The position numbers and the translations under genes are program-made. Of a stretch of 64,000 bases of DNA, positions 2,251-11,255 are shown piece after piece. Within the stretch, counting starts at the first letter, position 1. Each line of letters opens with the position of its first letter. The DNA is from Escherichia phage UPEC06: sequence record MW250786; one strand, 5' to 3'. The notes beneath the pieces are model-generated. The model had not been told where the DNA came from. It saw only the letters and a program-made list of their open reading frames with translations, and did no database searches.

Positions 2251-3885
2251 ATGGCTAGACCAACAACACCGATTGTTGTCTTTGCGGCACAAGATGTTAA
2301 CCTTCCTGGCACTGGAAGACCTAACAAATCAAAACCGATTGATGACCTTTTAGCGAAGGGCTATGACAAAGGACAAAAACCAGCGGCAGAGGAATTCAAC
2401 TATATTCTTCACCAATCTGGTGCTTGGCTTAACTGGATCGTAGAAGAGAAGTTCCCTGAAGTTGAAGAAGAATATAAGCGACTGATTCAGGAACTCGAAA
2501 CACGAGTAAACAATCAACTGGAAGTTATTCGTGAAGATGTTGCAAACGTAAGACAATCAGTTGCAACCTTGAGAACTTATGTAGAGCAAACTGTTGCAGA
2601 CATTCGTCGTGAGATCACTGCGGTTGATCAGCGTGTTACTCGTTTGTCTCAAGACTTGGATAATGCTGTTTCCAGATTAAACGCCCGTATTGATGAGCTT
2701 GAACCTCGTTTAGTTCCGATCGGTGCAATTCTTACTTGGGCAGGCCAAACACCTCCGGCGGGATTCTTGGAATGTAATGGACAGGTATACAGTACATCTC
2801 AAAACCCGAAACTTTATCAAGTCCTTGGTAGGAACGTAGTACCTGATTATCGTGGATTGTTCCTTCGTGGCTGGGCGCACGGATCTGGCGCTTACGATCC
2901 TGACTCTGGTCGTGCTTTGGGTTCTATTCAAGGTGATGCGATTCGAAACATTACTGGCGCGATGGGTTACGAAAGTATTCGTACTGACCACGGATATCGT
3001 GAGAGTGGTGCACTTTATACGCAATATAACTCAAACTCAGGTCCTGATCACGATCGTAAAAACCCAGCGGGTGATGTTCGATTTGATGCAAGCCGTGTTG
3101 TTCCGACTGCACCAGAAAACAGACCTAAGAACGTCGCAGTGATGTATATTATCAAGACTGATCAGGCACAAGGTACGGGAAGTCTGTCACCAACTGCACT
3201 TGTTACTACGCCGGACACTATTACAAACCGCGTAGGGTTTACTCAAGGGATTTCTGCTCAGGTTCTCCCTGCAAACTTGGCAAGTCAATACCCTGTGACG
3301 TGGACTTCTCAGAACGGTAATGTTGCAACAGTGGATAGTGCAGGTAACGTAAGATTAACTGGTCCAGGTGAAACTAACATTATCGCCTCTATCTCTACTG
3401 GTATCTCTGCCCAAGTTAAAATAGTTTCATATACACCACTGACAGCAATCAGTATCGGTAGCATACCTAGTGTAGAGGTTAATGATTCCGAGGTTATTCC
3501 TGTTAATAGAACACCTGCTAACTCTAACGAGCCTCTCGTGTATTCTACCAGTAATGCTAACGTCGCTGTTGTAACTCAAAGCGGTTACGTATCTGGTGTT
3601 TCTCCAGGTACAGCGGTAATAACAGTTCGTGGGTCTATCACAGGCATCCAAGCCACAAGACAGGTCACTGTAATTCCTGCAACGATTGTTCAGACCATAG
3701 AGGATGTTCGTTTAGGTCTTGAGCAACAGACGACAATGAATGGCGATGATTATACAAATCCTGTGCGTGCTCCGGCGGGTTGTGTTATTACTGGCGTTGT
3801 ATCAGCAGGTCTTGGGTTAAATCAAGGTTATTATAAACCGATCCAGAAGCGTATATCTGGCGTATGGGTAACGGTGGAGGGTTAA
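2251..3885 (+). CDS. tail fibre protein with phage tail-collar domain and C-terminal Ig-like (Big_2-type) repeats
   Basis: Motif LTWAGQTPPAGFLECNGQ...YQVLG...DYRGLFLRGW typical of tail-collar domain; N-terminal coiled-coil; C-terminal VTWTSQNGNVATVDSAGNV Ig-like repeats. Confidence 0.7.
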   Translation: MARPTTPIVVFAAQDVNLPGTGRPNKSKPIDDLLAKGYDKGQKPAAEEFNYILHQSGAWLNWIVEEKFPEVEEEYKRLIQELETRVNNQLEVIREDVANVRQSVATLRTYVEQTVADIRREITAVDQRVTRLSQDLDNAVSRLNARIDELEPRLVPIGAILTWAGQTPPAGFLECNGQVYSTSQNPKLYQVLGRNVVPDYRGLFLRGWAHGSGAYDPDSGRALGSIQGDAIRNITGAMGYESIRTDHGYRESGALYTQYNSNSGPDHDRKNPAGDVRFDASRVVPTAPENRPKNVAVMYIIKTDQAQGTGSLSPTALVTTPDTITNRVGFTQGISAQVLPANLASQYPVTWTSQNGNVATVDSAGNVRLTGPGETNIIASISTGISAQVKIVSYTPLTAISIGSIPSVEVNDSEVIPVNRTPANSNEPLVYSTSNANVAVVTQSGYVSGVSPGTAVITVRGSITGIQATRQVTVIPATIVQTIEDVRLGLEQQTTMNGDDYTNPVRAPAGCVITGVVSAGLGLNQGYYKPIQKRISGVWVTVEG

Positions 3886-3887
3886 TT

Positions 3888-4400
3888 ATGAGAATGAATA
3901 ACTTCAAGCTTTATACACCGGAAGTTAAATCTTTCGGAGAAGGAGTTCAGTATTTTCAGGATGATAAGGGTCGTGATTTCTACGACTCTCGTGCACTATT
4001 CAAAAAGAAATATGTTGTTTTCTTTGATGAGCATAATATTGTCCGTGGCTGGGCAAAGAGTGAAGAAGTTACCCGTCTTCACCCAGGTGGTTTATCTGTT
4101 GTGGATCTTAATACCCTCCCTAAAGATTTTTCTTTGCAAGGTGGTGTTTGGTCATTCAACGGAAAACAGGTAGTTAAGGCAGACTATGATCCTGCTTTTA
4201 GCACCGCTGCAAGAAAGGCTGGCATTCTGCAAGTGATCGGTTCTGTTATCGTTCCGCTTCAGGATGCTGTTGAATTGGGAGATGCTACAGATGATGAGCT
4301 TGAGAAGTATAACGATCTTCGTAAGATGAGAGTTAAAGTCATGCGTATCCCTGATAGCACCTCCCCTGGTGATATCGACTGGTCAGAGTTCACCTTTTAA
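3888..4400 (+). CDS. tail fibre assembly chaperone (Tfa-like)
   Basis: Resembles Tfa/P2 gpG N-region (FDEHNIVRGWAKSEEVTRLHPGGLSVVDL); start moved to ATG 3888 with GGTGGAGGG RBS, track start 3864 overlaps upstream gene. Confidence 0.6.
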   Translation: MRMNNFKLYTPEVKSFGEGVQYFQDDKGRDFYDSRALFKKKYVVFFDEHNIVRGWAKSEEVTRLHPGGLSVVDLNTLPKDFSLQGGVWSFNGKQVVKADYDPAFSTAARKAGILQVIGSVIVPLQDAVELGDATDDELEKYNDLRKMRVKVMRIPDSTSPGDIDWSEFTF

Positions 4401-4410
4401 CCTTAGATGA

Positions 4411-4428
4411 GTCGGGCTTCGGCCCGAC
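4411..4428 (+). other. GC-rich hairpin after fibre chaperone gene, no U-tract
   Basis: GTCGGGC-ttc-GGCCCGAC perfect stem directly after stop at 4400. Confidence 0.4.
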
Positions 4429-4439
4429 TATGGAGACTT

Positions 4440-4772
4440 ATGATTGTTGATATAATGGCAGTTCTTAAAGCACTTTGGGGTCTTTTAACATTTATTTTGC
4501 TGGGTGCACTAAAGATCTTTTACACCGACTTTAAAAAATTAGAGTCACGTCAAAGCGAGCTTGAAAAAGATGTTCTTCGTTTGAAGGAATCTGCGGTTAC
4601 TAAGGATAGTATCGATGCCATTCTTGACCGTAAGATAAAACATATCACTGATACGATCCAGGATATTAGGACCGATATCACAGATATGCGAAAGGAAGCA
4701 AAAGAAGAAAACCACGCTCTACAGAAGGATATTCGAGAATTACTAAACAAAATTATTGAGAACCGCAAATGA
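4440..4772 (+). CDS. membrane-anchored coiled-coil protein
   Basis: N-terminal hydrophobic helix then charged heptad-like region; start set to ATG 4440 with GGAGA RBS (track start 4407 lies in hairpin). Confidence 0.5.
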   Translation: MIVDIMAVLKALWGLLTFILLGALKIFYTDFKKLESRQSELEKDVLRLKESAVTKDSIDAILDRKIKHITDTIQDIRTDITDMRKEAKEENHALQKDIRELLNKIIENRK

Positions 4773-5227
4773 TTACAGCCATAATATATGGCATTTGTTT
4801 CGTAATCCTTGCTACTCGAAAAGAGAGTGGAACAAAGATAATGGCTGGGCTTTGCCTAGCCTATCTCGTATTGGAGAACCTGATCCTTTGGTTCTTCTCT
4901 ACGCAACAATATTTCGACATCACTCTTTATTTTAATGTTCTCTGGACATTGGATTCGATACTGCTTTTCACTATGGGTTGTACAGTGAAAGGATTACGAC
5001 AAAAACTTATCGTATGCCTAAGTATTCCGTTCATGCTTATTCAAGTGTTTGCAATCCAATATCCAGAATTGTTCCCCTTATGGGTTTACGAATTCGCTCT
5101 TAGAGACGCTCACAAATATTTCATAGAAACCTTTGTGTTCGTTTATTCTTGGAAGGATAATACCGTACCGGAATGGATAAGGACAGCAGTGGTGATATTT
5201 CTGGTGCTCATTGCCCATATGGTATGA
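4769..5227 (+). CDS. multi-pass membrane protein
   Basis: 152 aa with 4-5 hydrophobic segments; ATGA overlap with upstream stop. Confidence 0.5.
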   Translation: MITAIIYGICFVILATRKESGTKIMAGLCLAYLVLENLILWFFSTQQYFDITLYFNVLWTLDSILLFTMGCTVKGLRQKLIVCLSIPFMLIQVFAIQYPELFPLWVYEFALRDAHKYFIETFVFVYSWKDNTVPEWIRTAVVIFLVLIAHMV

Positions 5228-5249: not shown

Positions 5250-5510
5250 ATGTTAAAATTTCTCAAAGACCTCGTTACCTCTGCGGTGGAACCAGATAAA
5301 GCTTCCCATACAAAGTTTTGGTCTAACGTAGGTATGGCTGCTATGACTGCCGTCTTTCTATGGTATGGATTCAACAATACATTGCCTGAATGGTATGTGT
5401 GGCTTTATGCTCCTACGGTAGTGGCTCCACACCTTTTGAGTGATCTCATTAACCTCCGCTGGGGATTATCTTTGAAAAAAGATAAAGGCCCTTCTGACGA
5501 AAACAAGTAA
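5250..5510 (+). CDS. small membrane protein (holin-like topology)
   Basis: 86 aa, two hydrophobic segments, charged C-terminus, RBS-like sequence upstream. Confidence 0.45.
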   Translation: MLKFLKDLVTSAVEPDKASHTKFWSNVGMAAMTAVFLWYGFNNTLPEWYVWLYAPTVVAPHLLSDLINLRWGLSLKKDKGPSDENK

Positions 5511-5522
5511 GAGGAGAAAACT

Positions 5523-8500
5523 GTGTCGTCTAATACTGATATATTGGCACTGGTAAGTACCGAAGCAGATCTTGCTGTTGACCAGATCATTGAAGACTCT
5601 CGAAGACTTCATTTGATCGTCAACGGAACTGCAACAGAACAAGCTGTTACAGAAGATGGTAGCTTAATCCCTAGTGTACGTAAAGCGATAATTGATAACT
5701 TTTATTTTAAAACTCCACCGTTACCGTGGAGAAATGGAAGTTCAGTTATTGAATTCAATCAGTTATATGCATTTACCGATGTAAATGGCAACGTAACTTG
5801 GTGGTATGCCCCAGGTGCAACTACCAGCACTCCTGTCGTTATGCGAGACAGTCCAATCAACGACGGTAAGTTCAGACCTTTCTTCGATAAAGGTAACATT
5901 CAAGAAACTTACGCCCCTATCCTTTCCCCTGTTTTTCGTGGAAACCCTACTGTACCTCTTGCTGCTGAAGGTGATAACTCATTTACTATCGCGAACACAG
6001 CTTGGGTTAGTCGAGAAATAGAAAAAGTACGTGGTGAGGTTCTTGAAGAGTCCAGAGGTGAATTCCAAAACATTATCGTTGCAGATGATGCGAGTCTGAA
6101 AGATCTCTATGTAAGTGGAGAAACCATCTTCACTGGCGACAGGATCGCTGCTCTTGATGCCGAGTTATCTTTAAAAAGATTACGAATGACAGGGACAGAC
6201 GCAGAAATCGCATTTGAACAAAATGGCGTTCCACCCCAGGCAGGGTTAACAAAAAGAACAAATATCAAGCCTTTCCAAGTCACCACTGGTGTTGTTGATA
6301 CCGATAATATAACTGCGAGAGAGATCAAGGTTGGAAATACCTCTGTTTCCACGAATTCTCTTGATGTTGATGGATTCATGCAAGGTGACTATCTTCACTT
6401 AGAGGGTAATGCCAATAACGCAGAAGACCGCCCACAACTGATCGTTGACGGTATTGCGGAAATAAATACTCTTCGTGTGACGAACACCATTGAAGGATTG
6501 AAGGCTGACGTTGAAGGTCTGGATATTAATCCTAACAGCATTGTGGTTGAAAGAACTGCGGAGATTAAGGGAAATACAACCCTTGGTGCAGATCTTGCCG
6601 TTACTGGCAATACGGTATTGAAAAATGTAAGAATCGAAGGTACTCTCACGGGTGCTGGAATCGGTGTTGACGGGAAAGACATTTCCCCTCGTAATGTGAG
6701 TGCAACATCCGTTACTGTGGCAGAGAGCTTAAACATTACTGGACCTACTACGGCTTCCGGCGACGTTACGGTAAACAACCTGACGGTTAATGGAACACTC
6801 AGGGCCGATATCGACTTTGGAACTGCTGCTGTTGAATTCCAAGATCTGACTGTGACTAACAAGGCAACGATCAAGGATCTTGAAATCACCGGAAACCTGA
6901 CGGGAGTTACAGTCTCTGTTGATGGTGAAGCAATCTCCCCTTCTTCGGTGACAACCACAGGAAACATCGATGTTGGTAACAACATGCGTGTTCGTGGTGA
7001 TATTACTCTGGACGGTGAGTTAAGTATCCCAAGCTTAGATACTGGGGACATAACGGCTGCTGCAATTGATGGTGCGAGCCTCTCAGTTAGTGGCGACATT
7101 ACCGCAGGAACAACTTCGACCACAACGGTTAACAATCTTGTAGTCACAGGAACCACTACAGGAATCACTGTAACGGGCAATGTTGACGGACAAGACATTC
7201 TCCCATCCTCTGTAGAAACAACGTCTGTAGTGGCCTCTGAGAGAGTTACAACGGCAAACCTGACATCTACAGGTGACACTCAGGTAAATAACCTGACAAT
7301 TACTGGAACTGTAACAGGATTCGATGTAGATCTTACCGGAAAGGACATTCAGGTTAATACCTTGACGGTTACTCGCGGGTCAACTTTTGACGAGGTTACT
7401 GCTAATAACATAACCAACAATCAAAAGATTACCACAGTAGACCTTCAGGTTACTGGAAACCTGACGAATGCAGACGGTGAACAATTCTTTGCAAACGTCA
7501 CTGGTCAAGATATACTTCCTAATAGTGTGCAGTCTGCAACGTCTGTGAGAACTAAAACGCTACGTGTCGAAGAGACTAGCCTATTGGAAGGTGCTGTTAC
7601 CTTAAATGATGGTTTGACTATCACTGGTGGTAATATCACATCTGTTCAAGGTCAAGCAAGCTTCAATGACGTACAGGTATTTGGATCTCTTCTGGACGCG
7701 AATGGTAATGCCTTAGGGACAGCGGAAAGCATAAACGGTAAAGATATCTCTCCTCGTAGCGTTACTGCTCAAGTTGAGATTCAGACTACTGCAATTGTTG
7801 CTACAGGTCAAGCTGAAGTTGGTTCTTTGATTTCAACTGGACAAGTAATGGCAGGAAGCTTAGAGGTTTCAGGGATAGGTAATATTGGTCAGGTTATTAC
7901 CGACGACGTTCGTGCTGGAAAGGTAACTTCTGGTAACACCGTTATTACTCGTACTGTTGGATCTAGCGATCCTGCTCTTGAAGTTCGTGGACCAGGTGAG
8001 ATTCAGGGTGACCTTAATGTAACCGGAACTGTAACTGGTAACATTGACCTTAGCTCTCAAGACGTTAACGTTGCTTCAATGACCTCAACGGGAACAGTAA
8101 ATGCCCTTTCCATTGAGTCTCGTACATCGGTAACTGGATTGTCTGGTACATTCGGTGAAGATTATGAAGGTGCACCTACCTATGGTATAACTTCTCTTTC
8201 CGGCGCAAACATCAACAAGAACCTTCGAGTTGGTGGAAACCTGACTGTTGTTGGTAACATCTCTGGCAATATCGACTTATCTGGAAAGGCGATCGAGCCT
8301 GCATCTTTGTCTACCACGACAGCTACGTTAACGACGGCGAACATAACAGACCTGACTGTAACTGGTCAGTTTAATATCCCGACTGTACCGTTAAATGTTC
8401 AATCCCTTAGTTCTGAAAACGCTATTTCCGCAAGCAAGTTCAGCACCACACCAAAAGAAGTAAGCACCACCTCTTCTTCTTACATCCCAGACGGCTCAAC

Positions 8501-8756
8501 GAGCATATATAACGTAAACGTTATAAATGATGTTGAAGTGAAAGCGCCGATTGGCCTGTTGAGTTCAGGAAAAGGTGAGTCGGTATTCCTCTTCTTTGAA
8601 CAGGATGGTACTGGTGGACATGCGGTAACATTCGGATCGGAGTTTGTTGTGCATGGTACTGAAACCATCAAAACAGATGCAAACACTGTATCGGTAGTTA
8701 ACATGGTTTATCGTGGCAAAGGCCCATTGATTGACGTATTCATCACTCGTCGCTAA
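5523..8756 (+). CDS. long tail fibre protein with internal periodic repeats
   Basis: 1077 aa, GTG start after GAGGAG; many recurrences of GxDISPxSV...TGN.T.. units; Ser/Thr/Gly/Val/Asn-rich fibre-like composition; terminator follows. Confidence 0.75.
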   Translation: MSSNTDILALVSTEADLAVDQIIEDSRRLHLIVNGTATEQAVTEDGSLIPSVRKAIIDNFYFKTPPLPWRNGSSVIEFNQLYAFTDVNGNVTWWYAPGATTSTPVVMRDSPINDGKFRPFFDKGNIQETYAPILSPVFRGNPTVPLAAEGDNSFTIANTAWVSREIEKVRGEVLEESRGEFQNIIVADDASLKDLYVSGETIFTGDRIAALDAELSLKRLRMTGTDAEIAFEQNGVPPQAGLTKRTNIKPFQVTTGVVDTDNITAREIKVGNTSVSTNSLDVDGFMQGDYLHLEGNANNAEDRPQLIVDGIAEINTLRVTNTIEGLKADVEGLDINPNSIVVERTAEIKGNTTLGADLAVTGNTVLKNVRIEGTLTGAGIGVDGKDISPRNVSATSVTVAESLNITGPTTASGDVTVNNLTVNGTLRADIDFGTAAVEFQDLTVTNKATIKDLEITGNLTGVTVSVDGEAISPSSVTTTGNIDVGNNMRVRGDITLDGELSIPSLDTGDITAAAIDGASLSVSGDITAGTTSTTTVNNLVVTGTTTGITVTGNVDGQDILPSSVETTSVVASERVTTANLTSTGDTQVNNLTITGTVTGFDVDLTGKDIQVNTLTVTRGSTFDEVTANNITNNQKITTVDLQVTGNLTNADGEQFFANVTGQDILPNSVQSATSVRTKTLRVEETSLLEGAVTLNDGLTITGGNITSVQGQASFNDVQVFGSLLDANGNALGTAESINGKDISPRSVTAQVEIQTTAIVATGQAEVGSLISTGQVMAGSLEVSGIGNIGQVITDDVRAGKVTSGNTVITRTVGSSDPALEVRGPGEIQGDLNVTGTVTGNIDLSSQDVNVASMTSTGTVNALSIESRTSVTGLSGTFGEDYEGAPTYGITSLSGANINKNLRVGGNLTVVGNISGNIDLSGKAIEPASLSTTTATLTTANITDLTVTGQFNIPTVPLNVQSLSSENAISASKFSTTPKEVSTTSSSYIPDGSTSIYNVNVINDVEVKAPIGLLSSGKGESVFLFFEQDGTGGHAVTFGSEFVVHGTETIKTDANTVSVVNMVYRGKGPLIDVFITRR

Positions 8757-8758
8757 TA

Positions 8759-8785
8759 GAGGCCCTTCGGGGCCTTTTCTTTTTA
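8759..8785 (+). terminator. Rho-independent terminator after long fibre gene
   Basis: AGGCCC-ttcg-GGGCCT hairpin plus TTTTCTTTTT. Confidence 0.7.
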
Positions 8786-8795
8786 GGAGGACAAC

Positions 8796-10031
8796 ATGAT
8801 CCCTTTTCCAATTATTAATTTCGGTGGCAGTGTTCCACTACCTGTAGGCGTTACAATCAAGTATGCAGTAAGTACCAGCACCGGAAATATTTTTATTCTG
8901 CTTACCAATGGGCATCTATATGTAACTGGATCTAATTATCTAAACGGACTTGGTAAAACAGGGACCACAAATAATGCAACTTCGGGATGGTCACTTACTA
9001 ACACAGGTGTTGAAGAAGTTTATGAGGCAGGAACAGAAAGTACACTGTACGGCGGTGTGTGGGTTAAGAAAAATAATAACCACTATGAATATATCTCTGC
9101 TGTAATCTTCCCCACTGTTGACACAACTCTCCAAAACAGTTGGAACGTCTTGCCTGAATCTGCATACATTGTCGATGGCGTAAATATCTTATCTTCCGCA
9201 ATACAAATAGCCAGATCATACGCGATCCAGCCCGACGGCACTGTTTACAGACTTCTTCCAGAGGGACCTCAAGTAGCTTGGCCTGAGAAAACAAAATACC
9301 TGTATTTTGCAAACTATAATGCTATTCGTGTCGAGGTTGACGGAACTTTAAAATACCGAGGCGACAATGGTATAGATCAAGTGGCAGGCACTTCTGCCGG
9401 AACAACATTATCAACTTGGACAACCATCGGGGATTCTTCTGTAAGGTATATTAGGGCAAAATGTGCTCGTGGTCAAGTGGCTAACACGAGTGGCGGTTCA
9501 GGTGCTCAATCTATTGTACTTGTTGTTGCACAGAGGGAAGATGGGTCATGGGATGCAGTTGGATCGGCAGCAAGAGCAGGGATAAACTCAACCAACGTCC
9601 TCGGTCCTAATTTAGCACCTATGACAAGCATTCCTGCTGGAGTTGAAGTTTACCTAACTAACCAGATCAGTTATACAAACGCAAGTGTGAGCACTAGGGC
9701 AGCACTGCAAGTATTCATCTCTGACAGGGTTAATGGAGTTTATCAATCGACAGGTGGACAAGGTGGATACACATACTCCTTATTTAGAGATCTTCCTATA
9801 ACCACCAACGCAACATCTTTTGAAAGCATACATCAAGATATTATAGATGATGGCGGCATTCTCCATATGACTGGCTCATTGGCTGACACTTTCAAAGTGA
9901 TTGTTAGTGGTAATGGTAATCTTTACTGGACAGGGAGAGGTTACACAGGGGCTATGTACCCTGCTGACTTTACGGCCTCTAATACGATAGCTCAGAAGTT
10001 TAACTTGGAAGGTATAGTTATTCCAGCATAA
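8796..10031 (+). CDS. putative distal tail fibre / receptor-binding protein
   Basis: 411 aa, strong RBS AGGAGG, immediately after long fibre gene; no recognisable motif. Confidence 0.4.
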   Translation: MIPFPIINFGGSVPLPVGVTIKYAVSTSTGNIFILLTNGHLYVTGSNYLNGLGKTGTTNNATSGWSLTNTGVEEVYEAGTESTLYGGVWVKKNNNHYEYISAVIFPTVDTTLQNSWNVLPESAYIVDGVNILSSAIQIARSYAIQPDGTVYRLLPEGPQVAWPEKTKYLYFANYNAIRVEVDGTLKYRGDNGIDQVAGTSAGTTLSTWTTIGDSSVRYIRAKCARGQVANTSGGSGAQSIVLVVAQREDGSWDAVGSAARAGINSTNVLGPNLAPMTSIPAGVEVYLTNQISYTNASVSTRAALQVFISDRVNGVYQSTGGQGGYTYSLFRDLPITTNATSFESIHQDIIDDGGILHMTGSLADTFKVIVSGNGNLYWTGRGYTGAMYPADFTASNTIAQKFNLEGIVIPA

Positions 10032-10066
10032 AGAAAAGGCGCTCAAATGAGCGCCTTTATTTTTAT
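10032..10066. terminator. bidirectional terminator at convergent strand switch
   Basis: AAAGGCGCTC-aaat-GAGCGCCTTT hairpin flanked by A-run and T-run, between + gene ending 10031 and - gene ending 10080. Confidence 0.7.
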
Positions 10067-10079
10067 CTAAATTTTACGA

Positions 10080-11255
10080 TCAAAACGGAATATCGTCGTC
10101 AAAATCCATATCATCTACAGACATATTCACATGGCCTTCGATATCAGGTGTAGGTGAATCTTCTGCTGACGGAGTTAACTGCGGTTCCGGCTCAGATTTC
10201 TTTTCTTCTTGCTTAGGGGTTGAAGCCCCGTTACGGATCTTATCTTCCAACTGACAGATAAATCGGAAATTCTCTTCTGTTTTAGCAATAAACGTTTCAA
10301 TGTTATTACTTCCCCAACGGGCAGAAAGAATACCACACTGGCCTAAACGAGCACCAAAAGAATAATCATCCATAGATTTAAACTCTTCGCGAAGTTTTGC
10401 TTTAATGGAGTCCATCGCTGCAAGAACTTGCTCTACAACAATACCCTGATTTACGATCGTTTCATTCGGGAACATCGCATCTGTGATAGACAGTGCATTA
10501 CCTAAACGAATAGGCAGATCGTCTTTACCTTTACCTGAACGTGATCCTGTTCCAGTACTTGCACCTTTTGGACCGTAAGCTTTAAAGCCTGTAACCGTAC
10601 CATCATCTGAACGAACACCTGCAATACGACCACCTTCTGTAATCTGACCCGTCTGTTCATCAGTGAGGTTTACAGTAACTTCTGTGCCGTCTTCCAGCTT
10701 AACAACTACCTTATTGCCTTCGATAGATGTGATATCACCATAAATCTTCTTAGCTGCACCACCAGACGGCTTTTGCTGCTGTTGGGAACCATTTGATTGC
10801 TGCTGTTGCTGACGAGGCTCACGAGCACCGGATGCGTCAGTAATCTTGATACGTGCTTTCTTACCTTCCGTAGAAGAACCCTGACTACCATCTTGTTTGG
10901 TGTAGGTCTTGATAACAACAGGTAAGCGAATTTTCATACCTTCTTTAAGATCAGTGTAACCACCTTCAGGATTTTTAATCTGGAACTGATTCTCATACTT
11001 CAGGTTTTTAACTTCACCTTCACCAAAAGAAATCCAAGCCTGGTCTTCACCTTCTTTCAGAAGAACTGCATAGCGGTGGGTATTGTTAATGCTTTTTTGC
11101 TGACCTGTATTCTTATCTTTAAAGGTGGTAACGCGTGGACTACCATCTTCATTAATACGTTTAATGAGGATACGTTCAATCGTACCTGCTGCAATGTTTA
11201 CTGTGGTATCGGAAACAGCATCGTATACAGCATTGATAACTTTAACTTCAGACAT
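10080..11255 (-). CDS. single-stranded DNA-binding protein with acidic C-terminal tail
   Basis: C-terminus ...DDMDFDDDIPF matches the SSB acidic tip (DDDIPF); Gln/Gly-rich linker. Confidence 0.65.
   Translation of the reverse strand: MSEVKVINAVYDAVSDTTVNIAAGTIERILIKRINEDGSPRVTTFKDKNTGQQKSINNTHRYAVLLKEGEDQAWISFGEGEVKNLKYENQFQIKNPEGGYTDLKEGMKIRLPVVIKTYTKQDGSQGSSTEGKKARIKITDASGAREPRQQQQQSNGSQQQQKPSGGAAKKIYGDITSIEGNKVVVKLEDGTEVTVNLTDEQTGQITEGGRIAGVRSDDGTVTGFKAYGPKGASTGTGSRSGKGKDDLPIRLGNALSITDAMFPNETIVNQGIVVEQVLAAMDSIKAKLREEFKSMDDYSFGARLGQCGILSARWGSNNIETFIAKTEENFRFICQLEDKIRNGASTPKQEEKKSEPEPQLTPSAEDSPTPDIEGHVNMSVDDMDFDDDIPF

What the first reader, a model, noticed from the sequence alone, without database searches (positions are those of the whole stretch)
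5523..8756. Long tail fibre built from many internal near-repeats
The 1077-aa protein repeats units of the form ...VTGNLTG..V.VDG(K/E)DISP.SV.ATSVTVAE.LNITG... at least 8 times, consistent with a modular beta-structure shaft. At the DNA level such repeats allow in-frame recombination that could change fibre length. The antisense 294-aa ORF across 6395-7279 is best read as an artefact of this repetitive composition.
Basis: seen in the sequence. Interest (0 to 1): 0.35.

Follow-up and report, generated by a model that had tools for sequence, protein, structure and literature searches.

The report
Known phage long tail fibre gene
This is the already-annotated long tail fibre gene of an E. coli myovirus, whose shaft is built from nine old, diverged copies of a ~38-residue motif. 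It is an ordinary feature of phage fibres, and its DNA is no longer repetitive enough to recombine.

Summary
The ORF 5523-8756 (+, GTG start, 1077 aa, 112 kDa) is real. Its product is identical to GenBank QUL77297.1, 'putative tail fiber protein 2' of Escherichia phage UPEC06. It is the orthologue of the long tail fibre of Pectobacterium phage phiTE (PDB 9CUY chain g, E 1e-233) and of W70_107, a protein detected in virions by mass spectrometry.

The internal repeats are real. Nine copies of a ~38-aa motif (...L.VTG.LTG..V.VDGKDI.P.SV...) lie 49-106 aa apart between aa 310 and 936, and each scores well above shuffled controls.

Repeat number tracks fibre length across the family. Relatives of 1064-1094 aa carry 7-9 copies and those of 722-793 aa carry 4-5. 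phiTE-type fibres lack exactly the block aa 505-810, which holds four units, and that block looks like an old duplicate of aa 345-503.

The longest exact direct repeat in the gene is 12 nt, which is what codon shuffling gives. All 11 sequences in the protein's 90%-identity cluster are 1077 aa.

The antisense ORF 6395-7279 is a compositional artefact. It is interrupted in phage A5-4 and in more distant relatives.

Verdict: already known and ordinary. The shaft fold could not be modelled here.

The parts
5523..8756 (+). Long tail fibre (LTF) gene, 1077 aa, 112.2 kDa, pI 4.3, no Cys
   Evidence: ORF. Exact match to QUL77297.1, phage UPEC06. phiTE LTF 9cuy_g at E 1e-233. PHROG 4549. Purifying selection in the sense frame: 189 of 225 substitutions versus A5-4 fall at codon position 3, giving 172 synonymous and 36 non-synonymous codon changes.
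5510..5516 (+). Ribosome-binding site AGAGGAG, 6 nt before the GTG start
   Evidence: Read directly from the sequence. The same start is annotated in A5-4, LTH01 and CR8.
5523..6062 (+). N-terminal baseplate-attachment region (aa 1-~180): helix 7-34, small beta domain 63-121, helix 160-177
   Evidence: The most conserved part of the protein: aa 1-130 are 53-99% identical to the aligned homologues (70% or more in 25 of 33), against 25-50% for the shaft in homologues below about 55% overall identity. The AF2 model has pLDDT 60-80 here and matches the modelled N-terminal chains 9cuy_g/h/i. In phiTE, residues 14-171 are modelled bound to wedge and sheath-initiator proteins. Residues 12-117 are 43% identical to the N-termini of colanidase tailspikes in other myoviruses.
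6450..6563 (+). Repeat unit 1 core (aa 310-347)
   Evidence: HMM domain; leave-one-out score 19.2 bits.
6606..6719 (+). Repeat unit 2 core (aa 362-399)
   Evidence: 25.8 bits.
6858..6971 (+). Repeat unit 3 core (aa 446-483)
   Evidence: 34.5 bits.
7125..7238 (+). Repeat unit 4 core (aa 535-572)
   Evidence: 28.6 bits. Absent from phiTE/CB7-type fibres.
7272..7385 (+). Repeat unit 5 core (aa 584-621)
   Evidence: 33.7 bits. Absent from phiTE/CB7-type fibres.
7437..7550 (+). Repeat unit 6 core (aa 639-676)
   Evidence: 22.4 bits. Absent from phiTE/CB7-type fibres.
7671..7784 (+). Repeat unit 7 core (aa 717-754)
   Evidence: 17.2 bits. Absent from phiTE/CB7-type fibres.
7989..8102 (+). Repeat unit 8 core (aa 823-860)
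   Evidence: 13.8 bits, the weakest copy. Absent from the 722-aa homologue P0031.
8217..8330 (+). Repeat unit 9 core (aa 899-936)
   Evidence: 25.2 bits.
8403..8753 (+). C-terminal head (aa ~961-1077), a compact all-beta domain and the presumed distal binding tip
   Evidence: The only other confidently modelled part: pLDDT 83-91 from about aa 975. Homologues fall into two identity classes, 56-59% and 33-39%. It aligns with the C-terminus of the phiTE LTF. A binding function is inferred, not shown.
8758..8787 (+). Terminator-like GC hairpin plus T tract just after the stop codon
6395..7279 (-). Antisense 294-aa ORF: a non-coding artefact
   Evidence: It lies in the antisense frame whose third codon positions coincide with those of the sense frame. 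In that frame, stops need a sense Tyr, His or Gln codon. The sense region aa 291-586 has 0 Tyr, 1 His and 3 Gln. Codon-shuffled genes give a longest antisense open stretch of 191 +/- 53 codons, and 5-8% reach >=294. The ORF is split into 147+146 codons in A5-4 and broken differently in L003, L004 and CR8.
2251..3885 (+). Short tail fibre gene (544 aa), the partner fibre in the same module
   Evidence: 9cuy_c 'Short tail fiber' at E 3e-202. Pfam Collar and Big_2 domains.
3864..4400 (+). Tail fibre assembly protein gene (Caudo_TAP); relatives annotate a 170-aa product
8796..10031 (+). 411-aa virion protein of unknown role, immediately downstream
   Evidence: PHROG 15692. The W70_106 orthologue (44 kDa) was detected in virions. 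No PDB relative was found.

Best explanation
The gene encodes the long tail fibre of a Septuagintavirus-type (Vequintavirinae) E. coli myovirus. By homology with phiTE, three chains form one fibre.

[quoted passage not shown] Residues ~300-960 form a long all-beta shaft assembled from nine diverged copies of a ~38-residue motif, separated by beta-rich spacers of variable length. The last ~115 residues form a compact beta head at the distal end, which most likely makes the contact with the host or with another virion component.

The shaft grew by in-frame duplication of one or several units long ago. One block (aa 505-810, four units) resembles aa 345-503 and is absent from the shorter phiTE/CB7 fibres. 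The copies have since diverged so far that the DNA no longer offers a substrate for homologous recombination between units.

Shown: gene, homology, repeats, unit-number differences, and virion location in a 93%-identical relative. Inferred: trimer state, beta-helical shaft, attachment mode, and receptor binding by the head.
For: - Identity and homology.
- phiTE structure and description of its LTF (trimer; N-terminal bundle, globular domain and short beta-helix modelled for residues 14-171; an extended beta-helix of 512 A predicted by AlphaFold3). The neighbouring 544-aa gene is the phiTE short tail fibre, so 9cuy_g is the LTF by elimination.
- Virion protein: W70_107, 112 kDa, 996 spectra, matching the 112.2 kDa computed here.
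- Repeats.
- Unit number against length.
- Old block duplication: Smith-Waterman score 198, z = 11.8.
- All-beta secondary structure in the shaft. Beta-strand-like residue alternation.
- Strong purifying selection in the sense frame.
Against: - The shaft fold was not obtained here. The AF2 monomer gives pLDDT <50 for aa 323-924. A linker-fused three-copy construct of aa 300-449 gave mean pLDDT 40 and pTM 0.24.
- In phiTE only residues 14-171 are experimental. The rest is prediction fitted to low-resolution density.
- No receptor is known for this phage group. Flagellar binding is only suggested by analogy with Certrevirus.
- For phiTE the authors propose that the distal LTF bends back and touches another fibre, so the head may not be a receptor-binding tip.
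Confidence: 0.85

Rival explanations
1. The repeats are a currently active length-switching device. Recombination between repeat units at the DNA level generates fibre-length variants within phage populations.
For: Whole-unit differences exist between lineages, with 9, 5 and 4 units. A multi-unit duplication is detectable. The shaft shows mosaic patches between close relatives.
Against: The longest exact direct repeat is 12 nt, equal to the codon-shuffled expectation. Units are 37% identical in nucleotides on average and 52% at most, and TRF finds nothing. All five genomes at 93-96% identity have a 3234-nt gene. All 11 sequences of the 90% cluster are 1077 aa. Relatives at 68-71% identity are 1077 and 1080 aa. 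The mosaic patches are exchanges at homologous positions with length unchanged.
Confidence: 0.04
2. The protein is a single-chain bactofilin-like or tailspike-like beta-helix (one helix per chain, possibly enzymatic) rather than an intertwined trimeric fibre shaft.
For: There is a weak Pfam Bactofilin hit (E 0.024), and PF04519 is recorded for several homologues. One rV5-type relative is annotated 'polymer-forming cytoskeletal protein', and others carry a glycosidase domain distally. Weak Foldseek hits go to left-handed beta-helix enzymes and tailspikes (E > 0.1).
Against: The Bactofilin score of 15.3 bits is below the 27.9-bit cut-off. A single-chain beta-helix is normally predicted confidently by AF2 as a monomer, but here the shaft has pLDDT <50, as expected for an obligate oligomer. 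No enzyme domain is detected. phiTE chains g, h and i form a trimer.
Confidence: 0.08
3. The antisense ORF 6395-7279 is a real overlapping gene.
For: It is 294 codons long with a GTG start and is intact in LTH01. Only 5-8% of codon-shuffled controls reach this length.
Against: It is interrupted by a stop in A5-4 (93% nt identity) and not conserved in L003, L004 or CR8. Its length follows from the near absence of Tyr, His and Gln in the sense protein there. Its product is a low-complexity mirror of the sense repeats.
Confidence: 0.02

Closest known systems
Long tail fibre of Pectobacterium phage phiTE (gene phiTE_241; PDB 9CUY/9MJN chains g-i; Pfam PF26208 Phage_phiTE_241_N + PF26209 Phage_phiTE_241_C)
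   Same: Colinear homology over the N-terminal 516 aa and the C-terminal 266 aa (E 1e-233). The gene neighbourhood is the same: baseplate J-like, short tail fibre, assembly protein, three small membrane proteins, LTF, ~410-aa protein. The repeat motif is the same.
   Different: 793 aa with 5 repeat units, against 1077 aa with 9. The block aa 505-810 is missing in phiTE. The host differs (Pectobacterium against E. coli). Flagellotropism is known for phiTE only.
W70_107 / A5-4_248 tail fibre of Septuagintavirus phages (Microbiol Spectr 2024, PMC11370258)
   Same: 93% nt and 96% aa identity, the same length, and the same locus. Shown to be an abundant virion protein by MS. The identical protein is deposited as QUL77297.1 of phage UPEC06.
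   Different: Only point differences and two mosaic patches in the shaft.
rV5-type lateral tail fibre with glycosidase domain (Vequintavirus, e.g. Bas54 MaxBurger) and 'long tail fiber proximal subunit' of jumbo phages (CBB, PBECO4 group)
   Same: rV5-type proteins share the N-terminal anchor and the first repeat units (aa 6-496, 31% identity). Jumbo-phage proteins share shaft-like sequence over about aa 170-1077 (26-28% identity).
   Different: The distal parts and lengths differ (1374-1869 aa), and so does virion context. No T4 gp34 structure appears in the PDB sequence search.
Bactofilin beta-helix (PF04519)
   Same: A short-period, Gly- and Thr-rich beta pattern, with a weak profile match at aa 354-453.
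   Different: The score is below Pfam's threshold. This is a virion fibre, not a cytoskeletal polymer.

Membership tests
phiTE_241-type long tail fibre (PF26208 + PF26209; PHROG 4549) | Significant sequence match to the family along both the N- and C-terminal parts | tested here: met
   phmmer against 9cuy_g: E 1e-233, query 1-516 and 812-1077. PHROG 4549 at E 7.6e-249. PF26208 and PF26209 are recorded for all close homologues. The local Pfam copy lacks these two models, so the query itself could not be scored against them.
phiTE_241-type long tail fibre (PF26208 + PF26209; PHROG 4549) | Conserved position in the baseplate/fibre module, next to the short tail fibre and its assembly protein | tested here: met
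   Window genes: 103-1587 Baseplate_J; 2251-3885 matching the phiTE short tail fibre; 3864-4400 Caudo_TAP. The order is the same in L003, L004 and CR8.
phiTE_241-type long tail fibre (PF26208 + PF26209; PHROG 4549) | Physical component of the virion, attached to the baseplate as a trimer | not testable with these tools
   Shown for orthologues only: W70_107 by MS and phiTE by cryo-EM.
Trimeric beta-helical fibre shaft | Elongated intertwined all-beta fold of the repeat region | tested here: inconclusive
   The AF2 monomer gives pLDDT <50 for aa 323-924. The linker-fused trimer of aa 300-449 gives mean pLDDT 40, all-beta strands but no confident packing. The only prior support is the AlphaFold3 prediction for phiTE.
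Bactofilin (PF04519) | Score at or above Pfam's gathering threshold | tested here: not met
   15.3 bits against a 27.9-bit cut-off.
Recombinogenic tandem-repeat (contingency-type) locus | Repeats conserved at the DNA level, long enough for homologous or slipped-strand recombination, with length polymorphism among close relatives | tested here: not met
   Longest exact repeat 12 nt, equal to the shuffle expectation. TRF finds none. Length is identical in all close relatives.

The most novel reading that the evidence does not exclude
Repeat-unit number (4, 5 or 9 units, and other numbers in the 1170-1210-aa and jumbo-phage relatives) may be an adaptive 'reach' setting of the fibre. On this reading it is tuned in each phage lineage to the depth of the host's surface layer or to flagellar binding against cell-surface binding. 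The mosaic patches seen in the shaft (6573-7323, 7173-7473) would then reflect ongoing exchange of shaft modules between co-infecting relatives. The evidence does not exclude this, but nothing here tests it.
Probability: 0.15. Interest if true: 0.35.

Novelty: already known. Interest (0 to 1): 0.12.

Why it matters
The practical value is limited. The result confirms that the annotation is right and maps which parts of the fibre are anchor, shaft units and head. It shows that the shaft tolerates removal or addition of whole units: natural variants carry 4, 5 and 9. That is useful to anyone engineering fibre length or swapping heads in Septuagintavirus or Certrevirus phages. It also removes a spurious antisense ORF and a wrong expectation of repeat-driven instability.

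Tried and rejected
- Self-BLASTP returned no off-diagonal hits. It was replaced by window scoring with shuffles and a leave-one-out HMM test.
- TRF and DNA repeat finding found only short matches at chance level.
- The local Pfam scan found no family above threshold. The relevant models PF26208 and PF26209 are not in that copy.
- The AF2 full-length monomer gave usable N-terminal and C-terminal domains only.
- A three-copy construct of aa 300-449 joined by 40-residue Gly/Ser linkers, with a 13-sequence alignment, was meant to mimic the trimer. It gave low confidence and is inconclusive.
- Foldseek against the PDB returned only the phiTE N-terminal chains as significant. The beta-helix enzymes and tailspikes at E > 0.1 were disregarded.
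- Foldseek against BFVD returned the identical protein, phiTE and other fibre proteins. The many ~110-column matches were not mapped to a domain.
- Residue-class autocorrelation found no fixed short period, only a beta-strand-like alternation.
- Synonymous/non-synonymous counts cannot separate the sense and antisense frames here, because their third positions coincide. Interruption of the antisense ORF in relatives was used instead.
Full report
**What is there.** The window carries an ORF at 5523-8756 on the + strand with a GTG start, encoding 1077 aa. An AGAGGAG ribosome-binding site lies 6 nt upstream. A GC-rich hairpin with a T tract follows directly after the stop. The product is 112.2 kDa, acidic (pI 4.3) and free of cysteine.

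**Origin.** The DNA is 93-96% identical over its full length to one gene in five E. coli myoviruses of the subfamily Vequintavirinae: LTH01, A5-4, A7_1, W70 and A73. In all five the gene is exactly 3234 nt. The protein sequence is identical to GenBank QUL77297.1, 'putative tail fiber protein 2' of Escherichia phage UPEC06. It is listed at 100% identity to BFVD entry A0A8T8L773. The gene is therefore already deposited and annotated as a tail fibre.

**What the protein is.**
- It matches PHROG 4549 'tail fiber protein' at E 7.6e-249.
- It matches one solved entry, chain g of PDB 9CUY/9MJN (793 aa), at E 1e-233. That entry is the baseplate of Pectobacterium phage phiTE.
- The neighbouring 544-aa gene (2251-3885) matches the chain named 'Short tail fiber' in the same entry at E 3e-202. 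The paper models two fibres only, so chain g is the long tail fibre (LTF).
- The phiTE LTF is described as a trimer with an N-terminal helical bundle, a globular domain, a short beta-helix and a short helical bundle. Residues 14-171 are modelled. [quoted passage not shown] The rest is predicted by AlphaFold3 as a highly extended beta-helix, 512 A in all.
- Relatives of the protein carry the Pfam families Phage_phiTE_241_N and Phage_phiTE_241_C. The local Pfam copy does not hold these, which explains the empty Pfam result.
- In phage W70 (92.8% nt identity here), the orthologue W70_107 (112 kDa) was found in purified virions with 996 spectra. The orthologues of the 544-aa and 411-aa neighbours (59 and 44 kDa) were found too (masses).

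**The repeats.**
- A relaxed motif search finds the core G-x-D-I-x-P-x-S-V nine times.
- In 30-residue self-comparison the best off-diagonal score is 74, and 22 diagonals reach 45. In 100 shuffles of the whole protein or of its core, the maximum was 55-60 and the mean number of such diagonals was 0.18-0.28.
- An HMM built from eight copies recognises the ninth at 13.8-34.5 bits in every leave-one-out round. The best score in 200 shuffled cores was 8.2 bits.
- Unit cores start at aa 310, 362, 446, 535, 584, 639, 717, 823 and 899.
- The spacing is irregular, 49-106 aa. These are conserved ~38-residue modules separated by beta-rich spacers of variable length, not a strict period.
- A longer colinear similarity joins aa 345-503 to aa 507-700 (Smith-Waterman score 198, z = 11.8). 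This is the trace of an old duplication of several units at once.

**Length in relatives.**
- Among 65 homologues, the repeat HMM finds 7-9 copies in the 1064-1094-aa proteins that are at least 45% identical to this one, and 6 in two more distant 1073-aa proteins. It finds 4-5 copies in the 722-793-aa proteins.
- The phiTE/CB7 type lacks one block, aa 505-810, which holds exactly four units.
- A 722-aa variant lacks one further unit. A 790-aa variant has deletions at other places.
- The N-terminal 130 residues are the most conserved part: 53-99% identical to the aligned homologues, and 70% or more in 25 of 33. The shaft is about 25-50% identical in the homologues below about 55% overall identity. 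The C-terminal head falls into two identity classes.

**DNA-level recombination is not supported.**
- The units share on average 37% of nucleotides, and at most 52%.
- The longest exact direct repeat in the gene is 12 nt. Codon-shuffled versions of the gene give 11.5 on average and up to 15.
- Tandem Repeats Finder reports nothing relevant, and the repeat finder only reports short 60-84% matches.
- Length is invariant in every close relative: five genomes, 11 cluster members, and 1077 and 1080 aa at 68-71% identity.
- What does occur is exchange at homologous positions. A5-4 drops to 79-88% identity at 6573-7323 between flanks of 95-100%. The window differs from LTH01 at 7173-7473, where A5-4 and LTH01 agree.

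**The antisense ORF.** ORF 6395-7279 lies in the antisense frame whose third codon positions coincide with those of the sense frame. There, a stop needs a sense Tyr, His or Gln codon. The sense protein has 0 Tyr, 1 His and 3 Gln in aa 291-586. Codon-shuffled genes give a longest antisense open stretch of 191 +/- 53 codons, and 5-8% reach 294. The ORF is cut in two in A5-4 and is not kept in three more distant relatives, whereas the sense ORF is intact in all. Of the 225 substitutions against A5-4, 189 fall on sense third positions.

**Structure.** The AF2 monomer model is confident only for the N-terminal region (pLDDT 60-80) and the C-terminal ~100 residues (83-91). The shaft is below 50. The N-terminal part matches the three phiTE chains. 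A three-copy, linker-joined construct of aa 300-449 gave all-beta strands but mean pLDDT 40. The beta-helical trimer therefore remains an inference from phiTE.

**Verdict.** This is a known, annotated structural gene with an ordinary repeat architecture, and interest is low.

Noticed in passing
window 4407-4772, 4769-5227, 5250-5510 (+): Three small predicted membrane-protein genes sit between the tail-fibre assembly gene and the long tail fibre gene. The first has weak Rz-like spanin PHROG hits. The second corresponds to Pfam Phage_phiTE_239 in relatives. The trio is syntenic in L003, L004 and CR8. Their role inside a structural module is unexplained.
   Followed up: partly
window 6573-7323 and 7173-7473: There are mosaic divergence patches inside the fibre shaft. 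Identity to A5-4 is 79-88% at 6573-7323 against 95-100% in the flanks. Identity to LTH01 is 89-90% at 7173-7473, where A5-4 and LTH01 are 97-100% alike. This suggests allelic exchange between related phages without length change.
   Followed up: partly
window 8796-10031 (+): A 411-aa protein of unknown function (PHROG 15692, with a weak N-terminal match to a 'regulator of chromosome condensation' PHROG). Its W70 orthologue is a virion protein by MS, and no PDB sequence relative was found. It may relate to the unmodelled 'third fibre' of phiTE, but this was not tested.
   Followed up: partly
window 10035-10058: A perfect 10-bp-stem hairpin with T tracts on both strands lies between the convergent 411-aa gene and the minus-strand gene 10080-11255. 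It looks like a bidirectional terminator.
   Followed up: no
window 8403-8753 (aa 961-1077): Among homologues that are about 50% identical overall, the C-terminal head falls into two classes: 56-59% and 33-39% identity to this protein. This is the pattern expected if heads are exchanged between fibres.
   Followed up: no
window 5556-5873 (aa 12-117): The N-terminal ~105 residues are 43% identical to the N-termini of 'colanidase tailspike' proteins of Phapecoctavirus-type phages, and 38-48% identical to proteins of Vibrio, Aeromonas and Klebsiella phages. This is a widely shared baseplate-adaptor module fused to unrelated distal parts.
   Followed up: no
whole window: The exact fibre protein belongs to Escherichia phage UPEC06 (QUL77297.1, 143,140-bp contig). 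However, the best nucleotide match in the 'phages' collection is only 95.9% (LTH01). The source genome appears to be absent from that collection.
   Followed up: no
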